Assembly (NCBI GenBank): GCA_029865515.1
Contig: JAOUGQ010000001.1
Location: 1-52,679 of the forward strand
DNA length: 52,679 nt
Reading direction: 5' to 3'
Source of the DNA: Nitrospirota bacterium
GTDB lineage: Bacteria; Nitrospirota; Nitrospiria; Nitrospirales; UBA8639
Position numbers and translations under genes: made by a program
Part shown: piece after piece, positions 7,838-39,084 of the stretch
Numbering within the stretch: the first letter of the stretch is position 1
How the letters are laid out: each line of letters begins with the position of its first letter
Notes under the pieces: generated by a model
Told to the model about the DNA's origin: nothing
Seen by the model: only the letters and a program-made list of their open reading frames with translations
Database searches by the model: none

Positions 7838-8809
7838 CTAAGCATTCCCAGATTGCCCTGAAGCTCCACTTTCTTTATCTAAAAAAGCATCCGCCCCAAC
7901 TTCGCTCATGAGAAGGCTCAATTCGTTTCCTTGATCCTGAGCTCCACATTCAAATGTTTGGCCTTCCGGATTGTTGTATGTCGCAGGGCGGTAATCAGTC
8001 TCGGAATAAGGCTGTGGAGTAACTCCCAAAAAAGCAATATCAAATGCCATCCACTGTGACGTAAAGTCAGCTAAAATTTTATAAAATCCATAATCAGCTT
8101 TTCTTTTTAACATTCCAGAAAACAAAGGTACCCATCGACCGATATGCTCTTTAACAAACTTCTTCTCCGCTTCAATTACGGTTTTAAGCTTTTCCGCCCC
8201 ATCATGAAGAATGGCGTATGACTCTTTATAGGCCAAATAATGCATAAATTCTAACTCAACGCTCAAATGATCAAGTCTCTCATGAATATCCGGTGAAAGC
8301 TGAAGACCAAACGCACTATAGAATCCGGCAATGTCCCCCATTACGTAGGACTGACCAAAAACATGATCATTTCCAAATAATGTTTCATATGGCGGACAGT
8401 CCAGCGCAATTACATTACTGAAAACACGTCGATGCTCATCCCTCAAATCTTGAATATTCCAATTTTCCCCTTCAGAGGATATCCATTCTTCGATTGCATC
8501 AAAATGGGCCGCCAAGGCATCAAGGCGTTCTTGTGCTTCTGGGCCACCAATACTTTGCAATTCCTTTTTTAACCCTTCTAAGGCTGTTTTGCCATCCTCG
8601 ACAAATTCCCCGCTCTGGAGGTAATCCAAGAACTCATCATCCTCAGGGTACAGATAACCCCAAGAAACCAACAGATAAAGCTTACTTCGACAAAGCGCCC
8701 GATCAACAGCAGGCGCATCTTTTGGGGAGATCTTCACAGCCTTTCCTTCAGCGGGATTCGAGACCATCTTAGTTCCTGCCTTTTTCCCTTCTTTCACTCC
8801 TGATGCCAT
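7838..8809 (-). CDS. TorD/DmsD/NarJ-family molybdoenzyme maturation chaperone (candidate NXR delta/chaperone)
   Basis: CPPYET, FYSAFGL, ERLDHLSVELEFM and F..EH..RW.P.F motifs of the family. Confidence 0.85.
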   Translation of the reverse strand: MASGVKEGKKAGTKMVSNPAEGKAVKISPKDAPAVDRALCRSKLYLLVSWGYLYPEDDEFLDYLQSGEFVEDGKTALEGLKKELQSIGGPEAQERLDALAAHFDAIEEWISSEGENWNIQDLRDEHRRVFSNVIALDCPPYETLFGNDHVFGQSYVMGDIAGFYSAFGLQLSPDIHERLDHLSVELEFMHYLAYKESYAILHDGAEKLKTVIEAEKKFVKEHIGRWVPLFSGMLKRKADYGFYKILADFTSQWMAFDIAFLGVTPQPYSETDYRPATYNNPEGQTFECGAQDQGNELSLLMSEVGADAFLDKESGASGQSGNA

Positions 8810-24888: not shown

Positions 24889-26763
24889 TTATAAGGATTT
24901 GCCTTTGCGCCGATTGGCACGACGGGTCAAGATCCACCCTTCCACGATGACCAACCCAATGGCCGCCACTGTAGGATAGATATACGTTTCTTTAGGAATT
25001 GGTGGTTCCAACACAAGGTAATAAAATGCAGAGACCGCCATCTTTCGTCCCACATCCCCATTGTGTCCATCCCAGGCAAAGAAATTGATGGGAATATATT
25101 TACCCAGCTCAATGTACGTATCTTCTTCATAATCACCCTTAAGCGGGCGAGTAATGATCACCGTCCATCGGCCATTTTGCCACTCAGCCTTCACCACTTT
25201 CAGCTGTTCCGTGAAATCATCACGGTCCTCAAAGTCCATATCCCAACCCGTGCCTTGATAAGCCTTCAGGTTGCCATCGGCCGTCCACTTTGTGATATCA
25301 ACGGGGAAAGACTCATCTCCCCAGAAATAACGTGGCTTCCGTGGGGCTGGTAATTCCTGCCATTTTATGGGGAATTGGAAAGCAATCCCGTCATTAAACA
25401 CTTGATAAGACGTTTGCTTAGCAGCAATCGAGTCCGGGTGAGTCGGATCATCATCGAATTTTGAACCTCCTGGTGGCTGCTCTTCTATTCCATAATCTCC
25501 AAGATTAACTTCATAGGGTTCCCAGTCAACACTGTCTTTTTGCACACTCTTGGTACGATCATCCCAGCGGAACATGAACGCAATATGGGTTTCATTATAA
25601 AGGGATTGAACCCAGACATCGTCAATCCGGTTAACAAAGTTGCGCGGCTTATGGGTAATTTGCCCACCCATGGCGACGATCCGGCGTTCGATAAGATTCC
25701 ATCGTGGGTCATGTTCATCAGCCGGGAGTTCCCCCTCAACAAACTTTGAAGGAACCACGAAATTGATCTTTGGTTTATCTGTTAAAGGATCAATTCCCCT
25801 TGGCTTGGCTTCCAGTAAAGATTTCGCGATCTCATCGGTCACGTTTCCACCGGCAATATCAACGTCCTTATCCCGTTCACACAGATGATTCACGTAATTG
25901 GCAATATGCCAGCGATCTTCAACTGTGGTGTTGTCGGCAAATGATGGCATCGGAGTTCCACTTACTCCTGTGGAGAAAGTTCTAAAAATATTTTTAACAT
26001 TGTAGGCATCCTGACGACTGCCCCTGAAATTCCAGCATTTGTGCCAGTCCGCCGGTTGAATGGAAAAACCCCAGTCATCCTTAAGGTTAAAAGCATTCCC
26101 ATCTCCTCGACCTTCCAGGCCGTGGCACTCAATACATTTCATTTCTTTTACCAACTCTGAACCACGCTTAACCGATTCCGCCGAAGGGGGAACCGGTTGA
26201 ATTTTTTCAAGTTGCAAAACATGAAATTCTTCAAATTCCGTATCCTGCCAACTACGATCCTTGACCAATTCTGTCGTCACAAAAGCCAAGACATCCTTGC
26301 GTTGCTCTTCGGTCAAAATACCTTCCCAGGAAGGCATAGCGGAACCTGGCAAGCCATGAGTCACGGTTTGGAACAGGTCCACATCAATAAGCGGTAATTC
26401 CCCGCTGGCTGTATGACGGATTTTAAACGTCCCCGCATTGAAATTACGCGGGCGAGGCCACAAACGGTCTGCTCCCGGTCCATCCCCTGATCCGTTCACA
26501 CCATGGCACCAGACACATTTTGTAAAATATACCCGCTTTCCTGCTTCAACCTGTTCAGCAGATGGTGGAGCCGGGCGACTTCCTTCGGCAAACCCTTCTG
26601 CCATCTCAGCTTGGGAAGTGGTAGCCACACCCATTCCACCAATCAAGAGGCTTAAACTGAGGAGCCAGGCGCCGAGCCCATGCCTACCGTATTCGGCCGG
26701 TTTCTTTTCGTTCATAACCATCCTCTTTTCAAAATTTCCAGTATCAGATTGAATTTCATGCAT
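24889..26763 (-). CDS. Diheme cytochrome c fused to an EbdC/NxrC-like domain with a C-terminal membrane anchor
   Basis: Signal peptide (..SQA-E), CVWCH, CIECH, PRNF, GSAMP/GTPMP, then FRWDD, DGIAFQFP, WTVIITRPL, FFAWDG....GRK and a C-terminal TM; GGGAGG SD before ATG 26763. Confidence 0.85.
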   Translation of the reverse strand: MHEIQSDTGNFEKRMVMNEKKPAEYGRHGLGAWLLSLSLLIGGMGVATTSQAEMAEGFAEGSRPAPPSAEQVEAGKRVYFTKCVWCHGVNGSGDGPGADRLWPRPRNFNAGTFKIRHTASGELPLIDVDLFQTVTHGLPGSAMPSWEGILTEEQRKDVLAFVTTELVKDRSWQDTEFEEFHVLQLEKIQPVPPSAESVKRGSELVKEMKCIECHGLEGRGDGNAFNLKDDWGFSIQPADWHKCWNFRGSRQDAYNVKNIFRTFSTGVSGTPMPSFADNTTVEDRWHIANYVNHLCERDKDVDIAGGNVTDEIAKSLLEAKPRGIDPLTDKPKINFVVPSKFVEGELPADEHDPRWNLIERRIVAMGGQITHKPRNFVNRIDDVWVQSLYNETHIAFMFRWDDRTKSVQKDSVDWEPYEVNLGDYGIEEQPPGGSKFDDDPTHPDSIAAKQTSYQVFNDGIAFQFPIKWQELPAPRKPRYFWGDESFPVDITKWTADGNLKAYQGTGWDMDFEDRDDFTEQLKVVKAEWQNGRWTVIITRPLKGDYEEDTYIELGKYIPINFFAWDGHNGDVGRKMAVSAFYYLVLEPPIPKETYIYPTVAAIGLVIVEGWILTRRANRRKGKSL

Positions 26764-26776
26764 ATCCGCGTCCTCC

Positions 26777-27745
26777 CTATTCCCAGGTCCGCGGGTAATA
26801 CCCGGTGTGCCAGTATTCAAACATGATGACTTTCCAAATTTCATCTACCGATAAATGCTGTTCCCAGGGAGGCATGACCGACGCCCAGGGGAAACCTTCT
26901 CCAGGGAGCCCGATTCCCCCTTTAGCTACCCGCCAGAACACGAATGTTTCCTGTAGCTGAGCAATAGTTCCCGCATCTGTAAAATTTGCAGGAATGGGAT
27001 TGAAGGCAAAGGCCCAGAGGCCACGGCCATTTAAATTATCCCCATGACAGAAGTGGCAATTTTGAAAAAATATCTCTCCACCTTCCCGTACATGCTTGAT
27101 ATAACCCTTGGCATTTGGATCCCAGGGATTATCTTCCGCGCTTTTCACATCTTTCATTAAACGACCCATAGATTGGTCCACAATATGAGCATTGCTATAG
27201 GCCTGATCATATTTTCCCTCGGGATTAATCCGGTAAGGGTTAGCAGCGGTCTGCAATACATAGGTTTTGCCGTGAACTTTCGTGGTTGCTGGTGGGGCAG
27301 GATGCACCGTCCGCAATTCAATCGGTTCATCAAAACTTGGCAGGAATGAATTGTAGGCGAATCCCCATAGACCGATCGGCAATAGGATCAACAGGGCCAT
27401 TCGCAAGGCCTTAGTGAATCCCGTCTTAGCATCCAACACGTTAATGATGGGGCGCTTGAATTCTTCCCACTCCGGCTGAGAACCTGAGACCCACATAAAA
27501 ATACCGCAAGCCGAGACAGTGCCATAAATGGCCCGCACGCTAAATGGAATGGGTGGATAAATTCGATACTTCAGATAGAACAAATTAACAAACGCCCAGA
27601 CAAAAATACCGGCCCAAAATTTCGGCAAACCCATTCCCGCCTTTTTGAGCGAGTAATTAATAATGGAGAAGACCAATATGCAGATGGCCAATTCGGATAT
27701 CATCTGCATCGGCATGTAGCCTTCGACTAGTTTTAGCCACGTCAT
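26777..27745 (-). CDS. Membrane-bound monoheme cytochrome c
   Basis: 3-4 N-terminal TMs, CHFCH, PANFTD, distal SVMP. Confidence 0.85.
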   Translation of the reverse strand: MTWLKLVEGYMPMQMISELAICILVFSIINYSLKKAGMGLPKFWAGIFVWAFVNLFYLKYRIYPPIPFSVRAIYGTVSACGIFMWVSGSQPEWEEFKRPIINVLDAKTGFTKALRMALLILLPIGLWGFAYNSFLPSFDEPIELRTVHPAPPATTKVHGKTYVLQTAANPYRINPEGKYDQAYSNAHIVDQSMGRLMKDVKSAEDNPWDPNAKGYIKHVREGGEIFFQNCHFCHGDNLNGRGLWAFAFNPIPANFTDAGTIAQLQETFVFWRVAKGGIGLPGEGFPWASVMPPWEQHLSVDEIWKVIMFEYWHTGYYPRTWE

Positions 27746-27792: not shown

Positions 27793-29106
27793 TTATTCTT
27801 TTGGAGGTAAAGGCTGGCCTTCTTTTAATTGCGCCAGGTAGTCCACGATTTTATTCAGGGCCCCTCCGGTCAATCTTACGCCAAAATCTTTTGGCATTTG
27901 ATTATCCGGGAAGTCCTTTACCACATATGCACTTGGATTTAAAATCGATTCCGTGATGTATTCCTTTGGCGATTTAGCTTTACCCTTATAATTTGGATCT
28001 TTTATGCGCTCCGGAGCATTCGATCCCTCCATGAGGAGTGGCCCAACTTTTCCAGTAGCCCCTTCAATCCCAGGGATAGTATGACAGGCGGGACATCCGG
28101 CCTTCATAAAGAGCTTATCATGTGGCTCGCTCCCGTCCGCCAAAATATTTCCCCCTGCACCGCCCTTCTCTTCTTCTCCACCTTCAGCCGGACGATCTGC
28201 TTCCGGAATAAACTTTTCATAGGAAGCCACTATTTCATCATATGTTGGGGCTTCCTTACCTTCCCTTGTATACATCCAGGTATCCACAGCAGCCAATTCA
28301 CCCAATGTCAATGATATTGGTGGTTTATGAATTTTAGGCATGGGGCTTACCGTATCGTTCGAACCCTTAACGCCAAACCCTGGCACCACATAACAACTTG
28401 GGCATGAATGTGATTCAGCGATATATTCTTGGCCGTTTGTGGCAGTCCCAGAACCTGCAAATGCTTCCTTTTGCTCAGAGGGACGGGCTGCTGCATCATT
28501 CATATGATAATTCGGCTCCTTCAATCGCTCTGGCGACCTGTCAGGAATGCCATAGAGATTCGGCGCCCGTTCACTTAAAAACCCTTGCTGGAATCCATGG
28601 CATAACGGGCATTGCCCCTTCCCAATGGCTCCCTGAGTTTTACTTTGCCCAATTCCTCCGAAAATAATTTTTTCTCCCTCATCACCTAACTGCTGGGCTG
28701 ACATACTTTGAAAATCCAACTTCACGACTGGAGGGGGAAATCCTCCCTCAACCTGCGGCAACCAATTTCCATATCCGGAAAGTGCGGCTGCCACAAAAAA
28801 CATGAACCCCCCAATCTTCATGAGGGCGCTAATGTTCGGGAAATAGAGCCCCATAATGAAAGACATTACGGTGATCATCACCAGAGAAACCGGCAGCAAT
28901 CGGCTTTCCCCATGAAAATTATGGGCGTAATTTGAAATAGCCATAAACGCTAAGAACGCACAAAGAATTCCGATTAATGTCTGAAAACTCGCACGTTTCT
29001 TTTTTACCGGATCAGAAATAGAGGCTTGAAAATACAATAATAGCCCAACCAGCATTAGCAATACCGGCCATCCCATTCCTATTGCCCGTCCCATTAACTC
29101 AACCAC
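27793..29106 (-). CDS. Membrane-bound diheme cytochrome c
   Basis: 4 N-terminal TMs, CPLCH and CPACH in two homologous domains, an extra HSCPSC; GTG start with GGAGG SD. Confidence 0.85.
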   Translation of the reverse strand: MVELMGRAIGMGWPVLLMLVGLLLYFQASISDPVKKKRASFQTLIGILCAFLAFMAISNYAHNFHGESRLLPVSLVMITVMSFIMGLYFPNISALMKIGGFMFFVAAALSGYGNWLPQVEGGFPPPVVKLDFQSMSAQQLGDEGEKIIFGGIGQSKTQGAIGKGQCPLCHGFQQGFLSERAPNLYGIPDRSPERLKEPNYHMNDAAARPSEQKEAFAGSGTATNGQEYIAESHSCPSCYVVPGFGVKGSNDTVSPMPKIHKPPISLTLGELAAVDTWMYTREGKEAPTYDEIVASYEKFIPEADRPAEGGEEEKGGAGGNILADGSEPHDKLFMKAGCPACHTIPGIEGATGKVGPLLMEGSNAPERIKDPNYKGKAKSPKEYITESILNPSAYVVKDFPDNQMPKDFGVRLTGGALNKIVDYLAQLKEGQPLPPKE

Positions 29107-31230: not shown

Positions 31231-31347
31231 TTAACGGAACATATAGAAATAATCGAGGCCCTGGGCATCCATTAAGATATAATCCAATGTTTGGAAATAC
31301 ACAAAACAGATAACTAGTGAAACTATGACATACAGAATCGTCTGCAT
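31231..31347 (-). CDS. 38-aa single-TM microprotein
   Basis: MQTILYVIVSLVICFVYFQTLDYILMDAQGLDYFYMFR with a strong AAGGAGGAG SD; the track's 67-aa start is too far upstream. Confidence 0.75.
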   Translation of the reverse strand: MQTILYVIVSLVICFVYFQTLDYILMDAQGLDYFYMFR

Positions 31348-31408
31348 GCGCTCCTCCTTGGGTCTAAAAGTATTAAATAAAAGATTGTCTTTTTGGAAGT
31401 CATGCCAA

Positions 31409-31543
31409 TCAGCAGGGGCACTGAATGCCCGCAAACCAATAGAAAAACCACATACTCACTGCGCAGGTCAGATAAAATATGGCTTTGCCTATTTTGACCT
31501 CTAATTCCGTTGACTCTCGCACGACCGTCGTCGAATCAGCCAT
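31409..31543 (-). CDS. 44-aa single-TM microprotein ending in Cys-Pro-Cys (not in the ORF track)
   Basis: MADSTTVVRESTELEVKIGKAIFYLTCAVSMWFFYWFAGIQCPC*, SD GGAGGGAGG. Confidence 0.75.
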   Translation of the reverse strand: MADSTTVVRESTELEVKIGKAIFYLTCAVSMWFFYWFAGIQCPC

Positions 31544-31670
31544 CTCAAACCCTCCCTCCGCTTAATCCTTAGTTTAATTTAGATAATTTACCCTAATTAA
31601 CTTTATTGACAGAATCTATTTTTTCGTGGTATTCAGACGTTCATTGATTATGTAAAAAGAGGGATTTCTC

Positions 31671-31775
31671 ATGCGTACAAATGCAAAAGTGTTCGACATT
31701 ATAGTTTTGGCCGGAATGGTTGTCAATATTCTCTTGGCGGTCTTTCTCATCCTCTACTATTTTGATTTTCTTTAA
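31671..31775 (+). CDS. 34-aa hydrophobic microprotein, divergently oriented (not in the ORF track)
   Basis: MRTNAKVFDIIVLAGMVVNILLAVFLILYYFDFL*, SD AGAGGG; TTGACA at 31606 with a weak extended -10 (TGG-TATTCA); AAAAAATC-TCG-GATTTTTT hairpin at 31798..31816 downstream. Confidence 0.6.
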   Translation: MRTNAKVFDIIVLAGMVVNILLAVFLILYYFDFL

Positions 31776-31819: not shown

Positions 31820-32695
31820 TTAATTTGAACGGGCACACCTAAAACCAATTGTCTCATCCCGAAAGTCCGGCACCATAAAACTTCTATTGGTGATTCGAAG
31901 ATCAACACCCTGGCTCGTATACCCGCTGCCCCTCATCGTTTTATATGTTGAGGGGGGATGATCACTCGCCTTCGAAATTGTTTTTTCTTGACTGTACAGA
32001 TCCTCAACATACCAATCATCCGTCCATTCCATGACGTTACCCGCACCGTCATATACACCAAACACACTTTGGTCAAGTTGAAATGATCCAACAGGAGCTG
32101 TCACCAAAAAACCGTCAGCCTCTCCCGCGAAATTGGCCGGATGGCCTGCCAGGCCCTCTCCCCACGGCCAGGTGCGCCCATCCGTCCCTCGCATGGCTTT
32201 TTCCCATTCTTTTTCGGTAGGAAGACGCTTGCCATTCCATCGACAATATTCATTCGCATCGCTCCATGACACATAGGTGACCGGCTGATGAAGCCCTCGT
32301 AGCGCTTCGAGTTTCCTGGCATACCGAGAGGGCGGGCCAGGCTGACGATGCCCGGTTGCCTCAACAAATTCCATATACTGCTGGTAGGTGACTTCATACC
32401 GATCGATCCAATACGTCCCTAGATAAGCCGCATGAGCGGGCTTTTCATTGAATCCACCTTGATCGCTACCAAGAATAAATTCCCCTGCAGGAACTTCAAC
32501 CATCTCTTCCCTGATCCCAGGCCCTTGCGACTCGCTGTTTCTTGACGGCTCCAATAATGAGGAAGGAGGCAGTGCTTGAGGTTTTTCCTCCGGAAGAGTC
32601 GGGGGCGGGTCGGTTCCTCTCAAAATTCCCAACACCGGCAGGCCGGTCATGAACAAGACCGCAACCAGAAAAATCAGTTTAAAGCGACTTTCCAT
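31820..32695 (-). CDS. Membrane-anchored FGE-sulfatase-fold (SUMF1/NirV/PvdO-like) protein
   Basis: MVEVPAGEFILG, IDRYEVT, PVTYVSW.DA.EYC.W.GKRLPTE.EWEKA, GNVMEW, GFRCA. Confidence 0.9.
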   Translation of the reverse strand: MESRFKLIFLVAVLFMTGLPVLGILRGTDPPPTLPEEKPQALPPSSLLEPSRNSESQGPGIREEMVEVPAGEFILGSDQGGFNEKPAHAAYLGTYWIDRYEVTYQQYMEFVEATGHRQPGPPSRYARKLEALRGLHQPVTYVSWSDANEYCRWNGKRLPTEKEWEKAMRGTDGRTWPWGEGLAGHPANFAGEADGFLVTAPVGSFQLDQSVFGVYDGAGNVMEWTDDWYVEDLYSQEKTISKASDHPPSTYKTMRGSGYTSQGVDLRITNRSFMVPDFRDETIGFRCARSN

Positions 32696-32775
32696 GTTTC
32701 CTATCTCTGAACCTTCATTCCTTCCTATACGGAGAAAGCATGGGCGCTCTCACTGGCAAGGCGTCTGGTTATCGC

Positions 32776-33693
32776 CTACGAGGACTGAGGAATCTCAGCC
32801 GGAGGATCCTTTGCGCACCGGAAGCCGACGCTCGCATCGGTCCTCCACATCTTCGCTGAAAAACGCTTGGTGACCCTGGCACCTAGACGAGACTCCCGCC
32901 ATGACCCTCCACGAATAACTTTATACACATCATCGTCTTTCGGACCAGGGGGATCACGATACGGCGCTTGTTGATAGTATTCAGCGGAATAATTATCCAT
33001 GACCCACTCAGCCACATTGCCGGTTGCATCATATAACCCGAACGGACTTCTCCCCACTTCAAATGATCCCACGGGGGCTAAATACCGAAAGCCATCTTCC
33101 TCCCCGTCTACATTGGCAAATTGATAGTCAAACTTATCACCCCAAGGATACCGCCGCTTCCCTTCTCCACGTGCAGATTTTTCCCACTCTGCTTCGGTAG
33201 GCAACCGCTTGCCCGCCCACCGACAATACCCAAACGCATCATTCCACGTCACCGCAATAACCGGATAATCCTGACCGACTAACTTGGCAACATCATCTTC
33301 AAAGACCGGAACTTTAGGCCTATCCCGTTTCGTCATGCTGAGATAACGCTCATAGTCCGCCTGTGTCACTTCTTTGAGATCGATGTAAAAGGTTTTGAGG
33401 TACACCGGATGCGGAGGCCCCTCATCGGGGTCCCCATCTCCAATCCCCATCGTAAATGGCCCTTCAGGAATTTCCACCATTTTCCGATTATCATCGCCGA
33501 TCAGTGTTTTATACATAGAAAAATCCTGCGTGGGCATCGGCTGCAGCACACGGACTTTTGCAGGTTGGCCAGCCGATAAGGCTTCCAACTCTTTTTTCCC
33601 TTTATAGGTCTCATACAACAGCATCACGATCATCATAATAAACGAGCCGAAGACAAACAGAATGGCTCCAATCAAGACACCTCGATTTTCCAT
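32776..33693 (-). CDS. Membrane-anchored FGE-sulfatase-fold protein (paralog)
   Basis: N-terminal TM; GKRLPTEAEWEK, GNVAEW, RGGSW, GFRCA. Confidence 0.9.
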   Translation of the reverse strand: MENRGVLIGAILFVFGSFIMMIVMLLYETYKGKKELEALSAGQPAKVRVLQPMPTQDFSMYKTLIGDDNRKMVEIPEGPFTMGIGDGDPDEGPPHPVYLKTFYIDLKEVTQADYERYLSMTKRDRPKVPVFEDDVAKLVGQDYPVIAVTWNDAFGYCRWAGKRLPTEAEWEKSARGEGKRRYPWGDKFDYQFANVDGEEDGFRYLAPVGSFEVGRSPFGLYDATGNVAEWVMDNYSAEYYQQAPYRDPPGPKDDDVYKVIRGGSWRESRLGARVTKRFSAKMWRTDASVGFRCAKDPPAEIPQSS

Positions 33694-33743: not shown

Positions 33744-34118
33744 TTACGCCCGAGAGTTGTTGCCAGGGGCTTCCACCGCCGGTTCAGAAGGAGGCTGCTT
33801 CCGTTGTTGCCACGTTTCCAAGAGCATTGAAATCCAAATTCCCAAGAATCCACCCATCGCGGCACCAGACGCGGCACCAACGGTCACCGCCTCAGTTCCA
33901 CCCAACCCCAAGGCCAACAATCCGCCCAAGATGGTGCCGATAAAAATGCTCAAAAAAAACCCTCGTCCGCCTAAAAAACCTACCCCCGCACCCAGAAGCG
34001 TTCCTAAAGCCAAGGTGACAGGAAGCCACCCCTCTCCCATAAACACCCCGATCAGAAAGCCCACGGTGCCTAATCCTAGGATGCCCAAGATGACATCAAA
34101 AACTTTTGATGTGGTCAC
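33744..34118 (-). CDS. Small Gly-rich membrane protein (glycine-zipper-like)
   Basis: About 4 hydrophobic helices with GxxxG repeats; GAGGAG SD. Confidence 0.7.
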   Translation of the reverse strand: MTTSKVFDVILGILGLGTVGFLIGVFMGEGWLPVTLALGTLLGAGVGFLGGRGFFLSIFIGTILGGLLALGLGGTEAVTVGAASGAAMGGFLGIWISMLLETWQQRKQPPSEPAVEAPGNNSRA

Positions 34119-34154
34119 AATGACTCCTCATCAACGACCCGATTGAACACGGAA

Positions 34155-34859
34155 TCATTCAGCCTGAACCTGAAGGGAACCAAAATCGACTTCCACACCT
34201 GGCCCTCCTAATAAAGATATGCCCCAGGCTTGGGCCGCCGGCTCATGGTCATGAATCTTAAGAAAATCCTCATACACGTTGACACGCTCTTCCACCCACT
34301 CTCCGAGGGGCTGCGTCCCACTGCGAATAACAATTTCGGTTGAGCTAAACATGCCGCCCTCTTTGACCGACCCCACCGGTAGCGTCGCGCTCCACACGTA
34401 TTTGGTATTCACGGGAATAAACATCAGATCCACATCTAACGAAGGATAAATTGCAGCAATAAAATCAGCACTATCGGGAACGGTCTTTATCCGCCAACGC
34501 CAAATCAAGACAGGGTGCTTCTTCGGATCCCACTGAATATTCTTGGTATAGACCCGTTGGTTGGCGCTCTTGGCGGACAAAAAAGCAATCCCTTCCTCCT
34601 TATGAATCGTGTAGGTTTCATGGGCTGTGACCGTGCTCCGTTGCGCCTCCCATCCCTGAGGAAATCCTTTTTCATCAGGATGCTCAAAATTTTCCAAAAC
34701 CATCAGGCCATCTGATGGACCCCGGCCCGGCACATCTTGCGCAGAAACAGGACGACTCCCAATCATGAAGATGCCCAGTAGCAGACATGCCGAAAATGTT
34801 GCCAGGCTGTTTGGCCAGGCACCCGCTACTCTATTTTGTTGTCTACGATACAATGCCAT
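34155..34859 (-). CDS. Exported DUF3047-like protein
   Basis: Signal peptide, then P.L.WRWRI, KYVWS, W..ERVNVYEDF; the ATG overlaps the cydA-like stop (TAATG). Confidence 0.7.
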   Translation of the reverse strand: MALYRRQQNRVAGAWPNSLATFSACLLLGIFMIGSRPVSAQDVPGRGPSDGLMVLENFEHPDEKGFPQGWEAQRSTVTAHETYTIHKEEGIAFLSAKSANQRVYTKNIQWDPKKHPVLIWRWRIKTVPDSADFIAAIYPSLDVDLMFIPVNTKYVWSATLPVGSVKEGGMFSSTEIVIRSGTQPLGEWVEERVNVYEDFLKIHDHEPAAQAWGISLLGGPGVEVDFGSLQVQAE

Positions 34860-36730
34860 TACGTTGATTCCTCTTCTGAAAGCACCTGAACCACCGGAGA
34901 AGGCCGCGCCAATCCAGCCGTTCGCCTCTCCACCACTCGTTGATCCCATCGGCTGAGCCAAAATACGAAAAAGACCGATAACCAGAATACGATCATATTA
35001 ACGGTGACCATCTTCGCAGCAAATCCCAATGAAGGGGTAAATGCCCACGAGGAACGATCCGGCATTAATTCAGAGATATGCCATTCCAATCGACCAGCAG
35101 ATCGAATATACCCCATCAACCCCATCACCCATGAAAACGCGGCAGCCACGACAAACAACGCGACTATCCCGCGCGGAGTAATTCGTCCCCACTGAACAGG
35201 CCCGGTCATTTCAGCGCCTCGCAACAACAACCGATTGAGCAATAAGCCCCCCACGACCACGGTAGCTGTCGTCATCCCTTGAGGGGTAGAAAGCCCGACT
35301 CGCACATTCGCCGGTATATAGAATCCATAAATAGCCAACCACACAATATTGGCAATGCCCATGAAAAACAATAACAGGAGTAATGCATTCCCCGCTGATG
35401 CCCACTGTACGGTCACCACCCGATTGGCACGCCGATACAAAATATAGCTCAGAGCAGTCAAACAGATCATCACGTTAATCGCGCCGTTCTTGGCGGACAT
35501 CACACCGAATTGACCAATGACCGGATGTTGCGCAGCACCCATGGCTTTCATCTCACTGGCACTCATGGCAATGGTGTGCGGCGTAAACCACACGAGAAAA
35601 CAGACCATCAAGGCAAATAGGATGGCTTTAAAATACGGATGATAGCGTTCGCCTCCTTGAAGACGGGCCAAGGATTGCCAGATGTAATAATTAATTCCTA
35701 AAAACAACACCCCGACCATAATGGCTTGGAGCACAAACAGCCACGACAACATCCCTCCCATCATCGTAATGCCCATATGCTGTCTGAACTCAAACACCGC
35801 CCGCATCAGCCAATATCCGGCAAGTGGCATGGGGAGAAGCGCACAGACCATGACCACAATAAACACATGCCCTACCCAATCATAATACGCCCGGTCTTCT
35901 GAAGTTTTTGCCATGAAAAACCGGTACGCTGCATAGGCGACAACCACGGCTCCACCCGACATAATATCTGCCAAAAAGCGATGAGCGTTCAGTGGATTCC
36001 ACAAAGGAGAGTGCAGAAGATGCCACACATTGCCTAAAAAATGGCCTTGGGCATCGACCCCAGACGGGGCCATCATAAAAGAAGCCCATGAATTGGCTAA
36101 CAACAACAAAATCACTCCGGTTCCGTTTGAAAGAATACCAAGCGTCATATGCACCCACTTCGTCGCCGGGGTTTTCAGGAAATTCCAGGTGTAATAATAA
36201 AGCGTCAACAGAAAGGCTTCACTCACAAACACCGTGGCATACACCGGCATCACCGGCTTAAAGGTCGCCCCCATATAGCTCATAAACCCAGGATATAGAG
36301 TGACAAAGGTCACAAGCATGAGAGAGCCTAACAAGGCCGTAATGGACATCGACAACAACGCCACACGTAAAATATCACGGGCCAACCCGTCGAACTTCTG
36401 TTGGGAAGCCTGATGCTTGCGCGTGAATCCCAAAAACTCCAGTAAAAGACTAAACAAGGGAAGGGCTAACACAAAACCGCCAAAATAAGTATGTTGCTGG
36501 GTCACAAACCAGACGATCAGCCGGTTATTCACAAGAGGGTAGGAAGAGTAGGTCTGAATAATTTCTACCGCAGCTGGACCCTCAATAGACCCCTGAGTTT
36601 GGTAGAAAATATCCTGAGTTGGCTGTCCATCATTTGACGGTAAGGACTTGGGATCCGCGCCCAACGCCATTCCCGTCTGCAGCAGAAAGACGACCAGAAA
36701 GCCCAATAATGGCTTTACAATTTGTATCAA
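34859..36730 (-). CDS. Cytochrome bd-like oxidase subunit I, copy 2
   Basis: Colinear paralog of 29174..31141 (QQHTYFG, LANSWASFMMAP, LWNPLNAHR, YYDWVG, GYWLMR, QHPVIGQFGVMSAKNG, MGYIRSAGRLEW); TTG start 1 nt after the upstream stop. Confidence 0.8.
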   Translation of the reverse strand: MIQIVKPLLGFLVVFLLQTGMALGADPKSLPSNDGQPTQDIFYQTQGSIEGPAAVEIIQTYSSYPLVNNRLIVWFVTQQHTYFGGFVLALPLFSLLLEFLGFTRKHQASQQKFDGLARDILRVALLSMSITALLGSLMLVTFVTLYPGFMSYMGATFKPVMPVYATVFVSEAFLLTLYYYTWNFLKTPATKWVHMTLGILSNGTGVILLLLANSWASFMMAPSGVDAQGHFLGNVWHLLHSPLWNPLNAHRFLADIMSGGAVVVAYAAYRFFMAKTSEDRAYYDWVGHVFIVVMVCALLPMPLAGYWLMRAVFEFRQHMGITMMGGMLSWLFVLQAIMVGVLFLGINYYIWQSLARLQGGERYHPYFKAILFALMVCFLVWFTPHTIAMSASEMKAMGAAQHPVIGQFGVMSAKNGAINVMICLTALSYILYRRANRVVTVQWASAGNALLLLLFFMGIANIVWLAIYGFYIPANVRVGLSTPQGMTTATVVVGGLLLNRLLLRGAEMTGPVQWGRITPRGIVALFVVAAAFSWVMGLMGYIRSAGRLEWHISELMPDRSSWAFTPSLGFAAKMVTVNMIVFWLSVFFVFWLSRWDQRVVERRTAGLARPSPVVQVLSEEEST

Positions 36731-37871: not shown

Positions 37872-38387
37872 TCATGAGCGCCCTGCCGCCATTCCAAAAT
37901 ATCGGGTTTTGACTTCTTCCATCAGTGCAACTGTCACTTCGGACATACCCCGATCCAACGCGGTCCGCTCCAACTCAGTCTTGGCCATCGCCCGGATTCC
38001 AGACGGCACATTACCCAAACGACGCTCCGCGTCTGGACTCCACTCCACAATACCCTTATTGCGGGCGACACCCACACGTGAAAACGTCAGAACCCGTTGT
38101 CGCTGCGCGTTGGCAAAGGTCTCGACTTCATCACGAACCAAAGGGGCCAAGTACGGGGGAAGCCGGTTTAATTGATACAAGGCCTCATCGGTCCAAACCA
38201 TTCCAGGAACCAGGAGATCCAATTCTTTAACATCCCCTTCTACCCCAACTGAAAAACTACAGTGATTGCAATGAAATTTCACAAACACAGAATCGGCAGG
38301 GAACTCCTCAATCTCTGTTACCTGCAAGGGATATTGGCAACCACATTGCACGATCGGCTCACCCAATTTTTCCCGGATAGAGGACAT
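37872..38387 (-). CDS. Protein with a Cys knuckle and tandem PCP_red (BchB/ChlB C-terminal-like) domains
   Basis: CGC...CNHC, then two repeats WTDEA...L..LP......VR..VE.FA and WSPDAERRLGNVP...R......E..A. Confidence 0.7.
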   Translation of the reverse strand: MSSIREKLGEPIVQCGCQYPLQVTEIEEFPADSVFVKFHCNHCSFSVGVEGDVKELDLLVPGMVWTDEALYQLNRLPPYLAPLVRDEVETFANAQRQRVLTFSRVGVARNKGIVEWSPDAERRLGNVPSGIRAMAKTELERTALDRGMSEVTVALMEEVKTRYFGMAAGRS

Positions 38388-39084
38388 ACAGCATCGTATA
38401 GGTAAACGTTCCGGTCATAAACAATACACAATAGATCACCATGGTGAATTTTCCGAGTACCCGATGCCGTCTAGCCCCATTAGGCCAAATCCGTTGAATA
38501 GAGATTTCAATTCCAAACACCATCGCAATGAGAATGATAAGGCCAAGATACACACTGAATTTCCCCATGGAAAATCCAGACGCCATCACCCGTGACCCGA
38601 AGAACAAAAGGACGACAGTCGTCACACCTCCAAGGATCGTGGCAATGCGTCGTCCGGATGTCTGCAAAATCGCTTCCTTCAAGACCCGCTGACCTTCCAC
38701 GAAGGCCTGCGACCGAAACCCCAGCACCATCATATAAATGGCCATAATCAGGCCGATCACCACCAGAAGAATATGTAAGGTCAACACAGGGACAAATACT
38801 TTATCGTATAGCCATTGAGGCCCGCCAAACCCTTCCTTCCCTTCAAAAGCCAAAACACCCAGATTGCGGAAAAGATAATAACTGACAAAGAAGGTGAGCA
38901 TGGCGATCATCCCACCGAACATCAACCAATGGTGATGATCGGCTTTGTGGTTTCTGGCCTGAATCCATCCGACGATAAACAACCCCGTAAAGAGTGTCGC
39001 CATCAGTTGACTTACGTCGGCTCCGATCGTCGCATGGGTCCCGAAAAATCCCGGTTCCCTCAGCCATACTGCGATATCATCCAT
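38359..39084 (-). CDS. DUF420-family membrane protein
   Basis: HHWLM, F.VSY, F.G....Y...L.LHI.L, RRHRVLG..T..I.....TG...Y.MLY. Confidence 0.8.
   Translation of the reverse strand: MDDIAVWLREPGFFGTHATIGADVSQLMATLFTGLFIVGWIQARNHKADHHHWLMFGGMIAMLTFFVSYYLFRNLGVLAFEGKEGFGGPQWLYDKVFVPVLTLHILLVVIGLIMAIYMMVLGFRSQAFVEGQRVLKEAILQTSGRRIATILGGVTTVVLLFFGSRVMASGFSMGKFSVYLGLIILIAMVFGIEISIQRIWPNGARRHRVLGKFTMVIYCVLFMTGTFTYTMLYVLYPGKIG

What the first reader, a model, noticed from the sequence alone, without database searches (positions are those of the whole stretch)
31231..31543. Two single-helix microproteins lead the bd-like oxidase operon, one ending in Cys-Pro-Cys
Seen: 44-aa (…WFFYWFAGIQCPC*) and 38-aa ORFs, each with a strong SD and one TM helix, directly upstream of cydA-like copy 1. 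The 44-aa ORF is absent from the ORF track and the 38-aa ORF appears there only with an over-long start. Known: bd oxidases use small single-helix subunits (CydX, CydS, CydH). Inference: these are new small subunits or assembly factors, and the terminal CxC could bind Cu or heme or form a redox disulfide.
Basis: partly seen in the sequence, partly recalled or inferred. Interest (0 to 1): 0.75.

Follow-up and report, generated by a model that had tools for sequence, protein, structure and literature searches.

The report
Microprotein subunits of nitrite-oxidiser membrane complex
Two tiny membrane-protein genes (44 and 38 amino acids), plus a third one beside them, are real and conserved across two phyla rich in nitrite-oxidising bacteria, and are likely overlooked subunits of an uncharacterised respiratory complex, but the Cys-Pro-Cys end is limited to one lineage.

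Summary
Observation confirmed. ORF A (44 aa, ends Cys-Pro-Cys) and ORF B (38 aa) are under strong purifying selection. They lead the bd-like_3 / two cytochromes c / alternative-NxrC operon of a Nitrospirales genome; this is not the paralogue proposed as terminal oxidase. B was found in 134 of 151 class genomes and 105 of 120 Nitrospinota genomes, but not credibly in anammox bacteria. A precedes B in all 154 loci holding both. A third microprotein, C, travels with them and carries an antisense consensus promoter. A co-fold places A on TM4 and the loop before TM5 of the bd-like protein, a CydX-type site (0.69, controls 0.00). One genome has B fused to a bd-like protein. Cys-Pro-Cys occurs in 59 of 59 loci from three families and 0 of 95 elsewhere, where His-tipped or ligand-free tails replace it, so it is no universal cofactor site. 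A metal site with bd-like His273/His276 remains possible and untested. No translation evidence was found. No Pfam, NCBIfam or PDB family matches; databases call them hypothetical. The scan noted the pair before in another genome (e1-3035476). Verdict: new families of CydX-like accessory subunits.

The parts
31409..31543 (-). Microprotein A, 44 aa, one TM helix (about residues 22-40), basic residues before the helix, C-terminal Cys-Pro-Cys; predicted to dock on the bd-like protein
31550..31559 (-). Shine-Dalgarno-like site of A
   Evidence: purine-rich sites in orthologues
31231..31347 (-). Microprotein B, 38 aa, one TM helix followed by a conserved Met-x-x-Gln-Gly-Leu motif
31351..31359 (-). 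Shine-Dalgarno site of B (AAGGAGGAG)
31671..31775 (+).
31698..31726 (-). Perfect TTGACA-17-TATAAT promoter consensus inside C, antisense to it, pointing at A-B-bd-like; the only perfect copy in the genome
29174..31141 (-). bd-like_3 (OR-N family CydA-like protein, 655 aa); His116 and His286 align with CydA haem ligands; His273/His276 lie at the predicted A site
27793..29106 (-). Membrane cytochrome c of the module (437 aa)
26777..27745 (-). Membrane cytochrome c of the module (322 aa)
24889..26844 (-). Alternative NxrC (two cytochrome c domains plus EB_dh haem-b domain)

Best explanation
A and B are conserved single-helix membrane microproteins that likely serve as accessory subunits of the bd-like_3 / cytochrome c / alternative-NxrC membrane complex of nitrite oxidisers and their relatives, with A predicted to bind the CydA-like subunit where CydX binds canonical bd oxidases. 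Shown: the genes, their selection, their order and their linkage to the module. Predicted: A packs along TM4 (residues 224-246) with its C-terminus on the periplasmic loop before TM5, which carries the haem b558-equivalent ligand His286. Inferred: A braces that haem region and helps assembly or stability, as CydX does; B is a second helix of the same complex, probably N-in and C-out, tied to the bd-like subunit; C is a probable third. Cys-Pro-Cys is a lineage-specific tip of A's periplasmic tail. It sits next to His273/His276 in the model and may add a metal ligand or a disulfide, but the complex is built without it in most lineages.
For: Purifying selection. B profile hits 134 of 151 class genomes, nearly always once, 105 of 120 Nitrospinota genomes and 6 genomes of two families outside the class. 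A lies directly before B in 154 of 154 loci holding both, of 159 examined; 6 are duplicate genomes. The pair stays at the head of the module when the bd-like protein is only 47-51% identical and when the gene order is shuffled (L287, L288, L290, L291, L293, L294). Co-fold of bd-like + B + A with A scored: ipSAE 0.69, best of 3 controls 0.00, runs agree in at least 84% of contacts, partner pLDDT at least 72; the mark was reached by 116 of 157 solved and 2 of 215 mismatched pairs, counts that hold only roughly for this job. The contacted helix aligns with CydA TM4, and a review lists TMs 1, 4, 5, 6, 7 as the CydX/AppX site (PMC8951039, passages). A natural 994-aa fusion of a B-like helix, a bd-like protein and a dihaem cytochrome c, preceded by an A-like ORF, exists in G347.
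Against: No direct evidence of translation or co-purification: the N. moscoviensis locus tags next to bd-like_3 (NITMOv2_3644, 3645; that they are these ORFs is inferred from numbering) are missing from a proteome table that holds 3642 and 3643 and from a RefSeq-based RNA table. The co-fold may echo solved CydA-CydX structures. The fusion is a single case (1 of 251 class genomes). In the main Nitrospinota group C-A-B sits beside a DUF420 gene, unlinked to the bd-like gene. Anammox bacteria keep the module without detectable A or B. Four extra bd-like copies of about 80% identity have no A or B upstream (L069-L072), and solo A copies exist in two genomes.
Confidence: 0.68

Rival explanations
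1. A, B and C are transient assembly factors that help insert the bd-like protein or load its haem or metal and then leave.
For: In the main Nitrospinota group the trio sits beside a DUF420 gene rather than the structural genes; DUF420 and two FGE-sulfatase-like genes are in the same cluster here. His- or Cys-tipped tails are frequent: 72 of 95 non-CPC loci against 12% and 7% background. The proteins were not seen in two proteomes. That DUF420 proteins act in oxidase assembly is recalled, not tested.
Against: A and B head the structural operon behind the genome's only perfect promoter consensus, an operon among the 40 most transcribed genes in N. moscoviensis, while the FGE-like genes rank 539 and 1143. 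A confident full-length helix interface and a B fusion fit permanent subunits better. Small hydrophobic peptides are commonly missed by shotgun proteomics (general knowledge).
Confidence: 0.15
2. A supplies ligands to a metal site shared with the bd-like subunit: its Cys-Pro-Cys (or a terminal His of A or B in other lineages) joins His273/His276 to bind Cu or Zn, with a role in electron entry or redox sensing. This would add to the best explanation rather than replace it.
For: A residues 41-44 and bd-like residues 272, 273, 275, 276 are all in the predicted interface. His276 is invariant in 97 of 97 orthologues from the class and the main Nitrospinota group, against 0 of 5 anammox and 8 of 63 other loci; His273 is in 30 of 30 loci of the CPC families. 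Cys-Pro-Cys is invariant in 59 of 59 loci of those families, and 0 of 1595 long ORFs of the genome end in CxC.
Against: 23 of 95 non-CPC loci have no terminal His or Cys on either protein, several of them with His276. Two other Nitrospinota have His-rich A tails but Arg at 276. His273 is in only 11 of 47 other class members. No metal was modelled, the listed best contacts do not include the Cys-His pairs, and relatives are not independent.
Confidence: 0.2
3. B (and C) bind the cytochrome c or alternative-NxrC subunits, or act as regulators of another membrane protein, rather than binding the bd-like subunit.
For: In G405 and G406 A-B directly precede an alternative-NxrC-like gene, with the bd-like gene last. 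A solo A copy lies among two-component genes in G267. B was not scored in the co-fold.
Against: The one fusion joins B to the bd-like N-terminus; in most lineages B is the gene next to the bd-like gene.
Confidence: 0.12
4. The ORFs are leader peptides or a by-product of conserved regulatory RNA, and the peptides have no function.
For: They lie in the leader of the operon; no peptide evidence.
Against: Synonymous sites are saturated while residues are kept; the leader has no unusual structure (z -0.40) and no credible Rfam match; the trio persists away from the operon in another phylum.
Confidence: 0.02

Closest known systems
CydX / AppX / CydS, single-helix subunits of canonical cytochrome bd oxidases
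   Same: Single helix of 30-45 aa; co-encoded with a CydA-fold protein; A is predicted on TM4 and next to TM5 near the b558-equivalent ligand, overlapping the CydX/AppX site described in PMC8951039.
   Different: No sequence match in Pfam, NCBIfam or PDB. The partner is an OR-N protein without CydB or quinol loop. There are two or three microproteins, they lead the operon, and A has a variable Cys/His/Pro tail.
CydH (CydY, YnhF) of E. coli bd-I
   Same: A second, orphan-encoded single-helix subunit of a bd enzyme; a possible analogue of B or C, which are also unlinked in part of Nitrospinota.
   Different: CydH binds between TM1 and TM9; the sites of B and C are unknown and there is no sequence similarity.
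bd-like_3 / alt_NxrC_2 module of Nitrospira, Nitrospina and anammox bacteria (OR-N family)
   Same: Same four genes; described as a highly transcribed putative NXR anchor or reverse-electron-transport complex (PMC6606698, PMC3578206).
   Different: The passages I read name only the four large genes. Anammox versions lack detectable A and B and instead have an insertion of about 70 residues with two hydrophobic helices in the bd-like protein.

Membership tests
CydX/AppX/CydS family | Sequence match to the family profile or to solved chains | tested here: not met
   No CydX-type hit for any of 46 A or 51 B members in Pfam, 46 A or 47 B members in NCBIfam, or PDB profile searches
CydX/AppX/CydS family | Single transmembrane helix, about 30-45 aa | tested here: met
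CydX/AppX/CydS family | Binds a CydA-fold subunit along TM4-TM7 near haem b558 | tested here: inconclusive
   Predicted for A on TM4 and the pre-TM5 loop only; a model, possibly echoing solved complexes; B not scored
CydX/AppX/CydS family | Partner is a quinol-oxidising CydAB enzyme | tested here: not met
   PF01654 matches only residues 106-352 of the partner and no cydB-like gene was annotated among the neighbouring ORFs; OR-N lacks the quinol site (bioRxiv 10.1101/2021.01.16.426971)
CydX/AppX/CydS family | Needed for assembly, stability or activity of the complex | not testable with these tools
   needs deletion or reconstitution
CydH/CydY | Binds between TM1 and TM9 | tested here: not met
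   A is predicted on TM4; not tested for B or C
CxC metal-binding or redox-disulfide motif as family-wide cofactor site | Both cysteines kept across the family | tested here: not met
   59 of 59 loci in three families, 0 of 95 elsewhere
CxC metal-binding or redox-disulfide motif as family-wide cofactor site | Binds metal or haem, or forms a disulfide | not testable with these tools
   needs biochemistry
OR-N bd-like_3 module (host complex) | CydA-like gene followed by two membrane cytochromes c and an alternative NxrC | tested here: met
   matches the description in PMC6606698

The most novel reading that the evidence does not exclude
The nitrite oxidisers' bd-like_3 complex has three unrecognised microprotein subunits, and A's periplasmic tail completes an inter-subunit metal site with His273/His276 of the CydA-like protein, using Cys-Pro-Cys in Nitrospirales and terminal His residues elsewhere. 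That would put a non-haem metal centre on a bd-fold protein at the entry point for nitrite-derived electrons.
Probability: 0.18. Interest if true: 0.78.

Novelty: new variant of a known kind. Interest (0 to 1): 0.5.

Why it matters
How Nitrospira- and Nitrospina-type nitrite oxidisers connect soluble NXR to the membrane is an open question, and this module is the main candidate in the papers read. If A, B and C are subunits, attempts to express, purify or model the complex from its four annotated genes would lack parts, as happened with CydX. The work gives exact targets, a predicted binding site, a natural fusion, a candidate metal site to mutate and a candidate promoter. The kind of thing, small subunits of a bd-fold enzyme, is known; these families and their range are not described in anything I found.

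Tried and rejected
Family searches found nothing meaningful: Pfam and NCBIfam for the window proteins and for alignment members (only weak hydrophobic hits such as SecE, FixP_N, YmiA), PDB profiles, ESM Atlas (only hypothetical clusters; a YWFCY cluster at 0.83 is below the lead threshold). A against B by HHalign gave probability 79% over 26 hydrophobic columns: common origin not established. A search for longer, fused forms of B found none among 7994 candidates, which the tool calls weak evidence. AlphaFold2 of the natural fusion left the B-like helix at pLDDT 49-65, uninformative about docking. B was in the co-fold but not scored, and no A-B contact was named. RNA runs held under 10% of the words; one 823-nt contig of a relative spans A, B and the start of the bd-like gene, which does not show a single transcript. 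A N. marina proteome table lacks IMG id 2597407154, the gene next to its bd-like_3 by numbering; I did not verify which ORF that is. Anammox order: 10 of 81 genomes had hits at E up to 0.05, all with internal stops or inside long frames, judged chance from the table and not opened. The idea that A and B replace the anammox two-helix insertion has no sequence support. The 50% representative search and tree (quick tree only) served only to pick a query. Literature searches for the locus tags and for small proteins in these organisms returned 0 papers; searches listed none on these microproteins. Subscription papers are not covered, and bioRxiv supplements, including those of the OR-N paper, were not seen.

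Full report
Observation. Both have strong ribosome-binding sites and one hydrophobic helix. A third ORF, C (34 aa, 31671-31775, + strand), lies divergent from A.

They are genes. In 30 loci picked by the bd-like protein, A and B were complete in 29 (the last is cut by a contig end) and C was found in 27. Among 19 same-genus sequences A has pN 0.060 and pS 0.79, B has omega 0.052, and C (17 sequences) 0.037; other frames fail. Relatives are in public databases as hypothetical proteins, for example CUQ68311.1, CUS39853.1 and SPP65761.1 from Nitrospira species; 438 proteins match the A profile. No known family matches.

Context. Downstream lie a CydA-like protein (PF01654 over its N-terminal half; fold matches only bd oxidases), two membrane cytochromes c and an alternative NxrC. 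This is the bd-like_3 / alt_NxrC_2 cluster of PMC6606698 (passages), described there as among the 40 most transcribed genes and as a possible NXR anchor or reverse-electron-transport complex. The proposed terminal oxidase is another paralogue, bd-like_2. In that paper's supplements bd-like_3 ranks 37, the neighbouring cytochrome 29 and alt_NxrC_2 17, while the upstream FGE-like genes rank 539 and 1143. PMC3578206 (passages) and the OR-N paper (10.1101/2021.01.16.426971, passages) state that these proteins lack the quinol site. PMC12342949, PMC10839748, PMC9040806, PMC8387239 and PMC8115632 were read as passages and those passages do not mention the microproteins.

Range. The B profile hits 134 of 151 class genomes (114 of 124 high-quality), where 146 of 151 have a bd-like match. 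It hits 105 of 120 genomes of the phylum of a Nitrospinae record and, in a phylum-wide draw, 5 of 6 and 1 of 7 genomes of two families outside the class, with none in the other outside families (62 of 251 overall). It finds nothing in 201 Planctomycetota and nothing credible in 81 anammox-order genomes, though five anammox loci hold the same four-gene module. Of 159 loci examined, 154 hold both A and B, always A then B within 300 nt (six are duplicate genomes, and many loci were fetched because A or B matched). The pair heads the module in the class, in the two outside families and, with shuffled gene order, in two Nitrospinota genomes. In the main Nitrospinota group (my label: Nitrospinaceae-like) C, A and B keep the same arrangement but sit beside a DUF420 gene, away from the bd-like gene. 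Four extra bd-like copies have no A or B upstream, and two genomes have a solo A copy.

Physical link. A co-fold of bd-like residues 66-635 with B and A, scoring A, gave 0.69 against 0.00 for the best of 3 controls, with runs agreeing in at least 84% of contacts and partner pLDDT at least 72. The mark was reached by 116 of 157 solved and 2 of 215 mismatched pairs, counts that hold only roughly here. A lies along residues 224-246 and touches 77, 270-276, 281 and 284. These map to CydA TM4 and the loop before the TM5 haem ligand, and a review gives TMs 1, 4, 5, 6 and 7, near haem b558, as the CydX/AppX site (PMC8951039, passages). The pass may partly echo those solved structures; it supports binding and does not show it. 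For B, genome G347 encodes a 994-aa protein that starts with a B-like helix, continues into a bd-like protein and ends in a dihaem cytochrome c, behind an A-like ORF. It is a single case (1 of 251).

The Cys-Pro-Cys end. It is invariant in 59 of 59 loci from three families and absent in 95 of 95 others, including a fourth family of the same order. Elsewhere A ends in one or more His, in Pro-rich tails or in no ligand; in the main Nitrospinota group B often ends in a Gly run and His. A terminal His on A or B occurs in 72 of those 95 loci (background 12% and 7%), with 23 exceptions. In the model the tail lies by His273 and His276; His276 is invariant in 97 of 97 orthologues from the class and the main Nitrospinota group, against 0 of 5 anammox, 0 of 2 other Nitrospinota and 8 of 63 other loci. 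The pattern does not co-vary cleanly, and relatives are not independent. So the motif is not an essential family-wide cofactor site, and a shared metal site is a hypothesis at about 0.2.

Promoter. C contains, on its antisense strand, the genome's only perfect TTGACA-17-TATAAT, 155 nt before A. It is perfect in 27 of 27 and 30 of 30 loci of the three CPC families (the sets overlap), the codons under the hexamers do not vary, and it is lost where C persists in other lineages. It is a consensus match, not a mapped start.

Against. No peptide or ribosome evidence: the tags presumed to be these ORFs are absent from the N. moscoviensis proteome supplement of PMC9381531 and the RefSeq-based RNA table. 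The module exists without A and B in anammox bacteria.

Verdict. Real genes; most likely new, non-homologous CydX-like accessory subunits of the OR-N bd-like_3 module (0.68). They work like CydX by prediction but are not members of that family. Interest 0.5.

Noticed in passing
window 31671-31775 (+) and 31698-31726 (-): Third conserved microprotein C with a perfect sigma-70 consensus promoter embedded antisense in its coding sequence; dual coding constraint (pS 0.29 against 0.73-0.79 for A and B). The promoter and the CPC tail occur in the same three families.
   Followed up: yes
L200:7022-10006 (G347:C14): Natural fusion of B-like helix, low-complexity linker, bd-like protein and dihaem cytochrome c (994 aa), behind an A-like ORF; the same genome has a normal A-B-bd-like locus in which the bd-like frame appears split (L201:2134-3800).
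   Followed up: partly
L147, L152, L161, L142 bd-like genes: Anammox-type bd-like proteins have an insertion of about 70 residues with two hydrophobic helices after position 488 of the window protein.
   Followed up: partly
L068:6752-6922 (G317) and L067 about 8002-8150 (G267): Solo second copies of A, still ending in Cys-Pro-Cys, away from any bd-like gene; the G267 copy lies among two-component regulator genes.
   Followed up: partly
L069-L072: Extra bd-like_3 copies (about 80% identical) without A or B upstream; they keep His273 and His276 in the three that were aligned.
   Followed up: partly
window 34859-36730 (-): Second CydA-like gene (bd-like_4, 47% identical) also has His273 and His276 and could be a second partner for A or the other half of a CydAA' pair; not co-folded.
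   Followed up: no
window 31820-33693 (-), 33744-34961 (-), 37872-39084 (-): Two FGE-sulfatase-domain membrane proteins, a glycine-zipper protein, DUF3047, a PCP_red-domain protein and DUF420 sit in the same cluster; DUF420 stays next to C-A-B in Nitrospinota.
   Followed up: partly
L206:49-228, L207:28-201, L210:81-227 and similar: A further conserved small two-helix ORF (48-59 aa) precedes DUF420 in the Nitrospinota loci.
   Followed up: no
L248, L249, L252: In one Nitrospinota subgroup B carries a Cys-x-x-x-Cys motif in its tail while A has no Cys or His.
   Followed up: no
L103, L108, L201:236-445, L202:4512-4697: Another small single-helix ORF (45-69 aa) recurs near the FGE-like genes in other orders of the class.
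   Followed up: no
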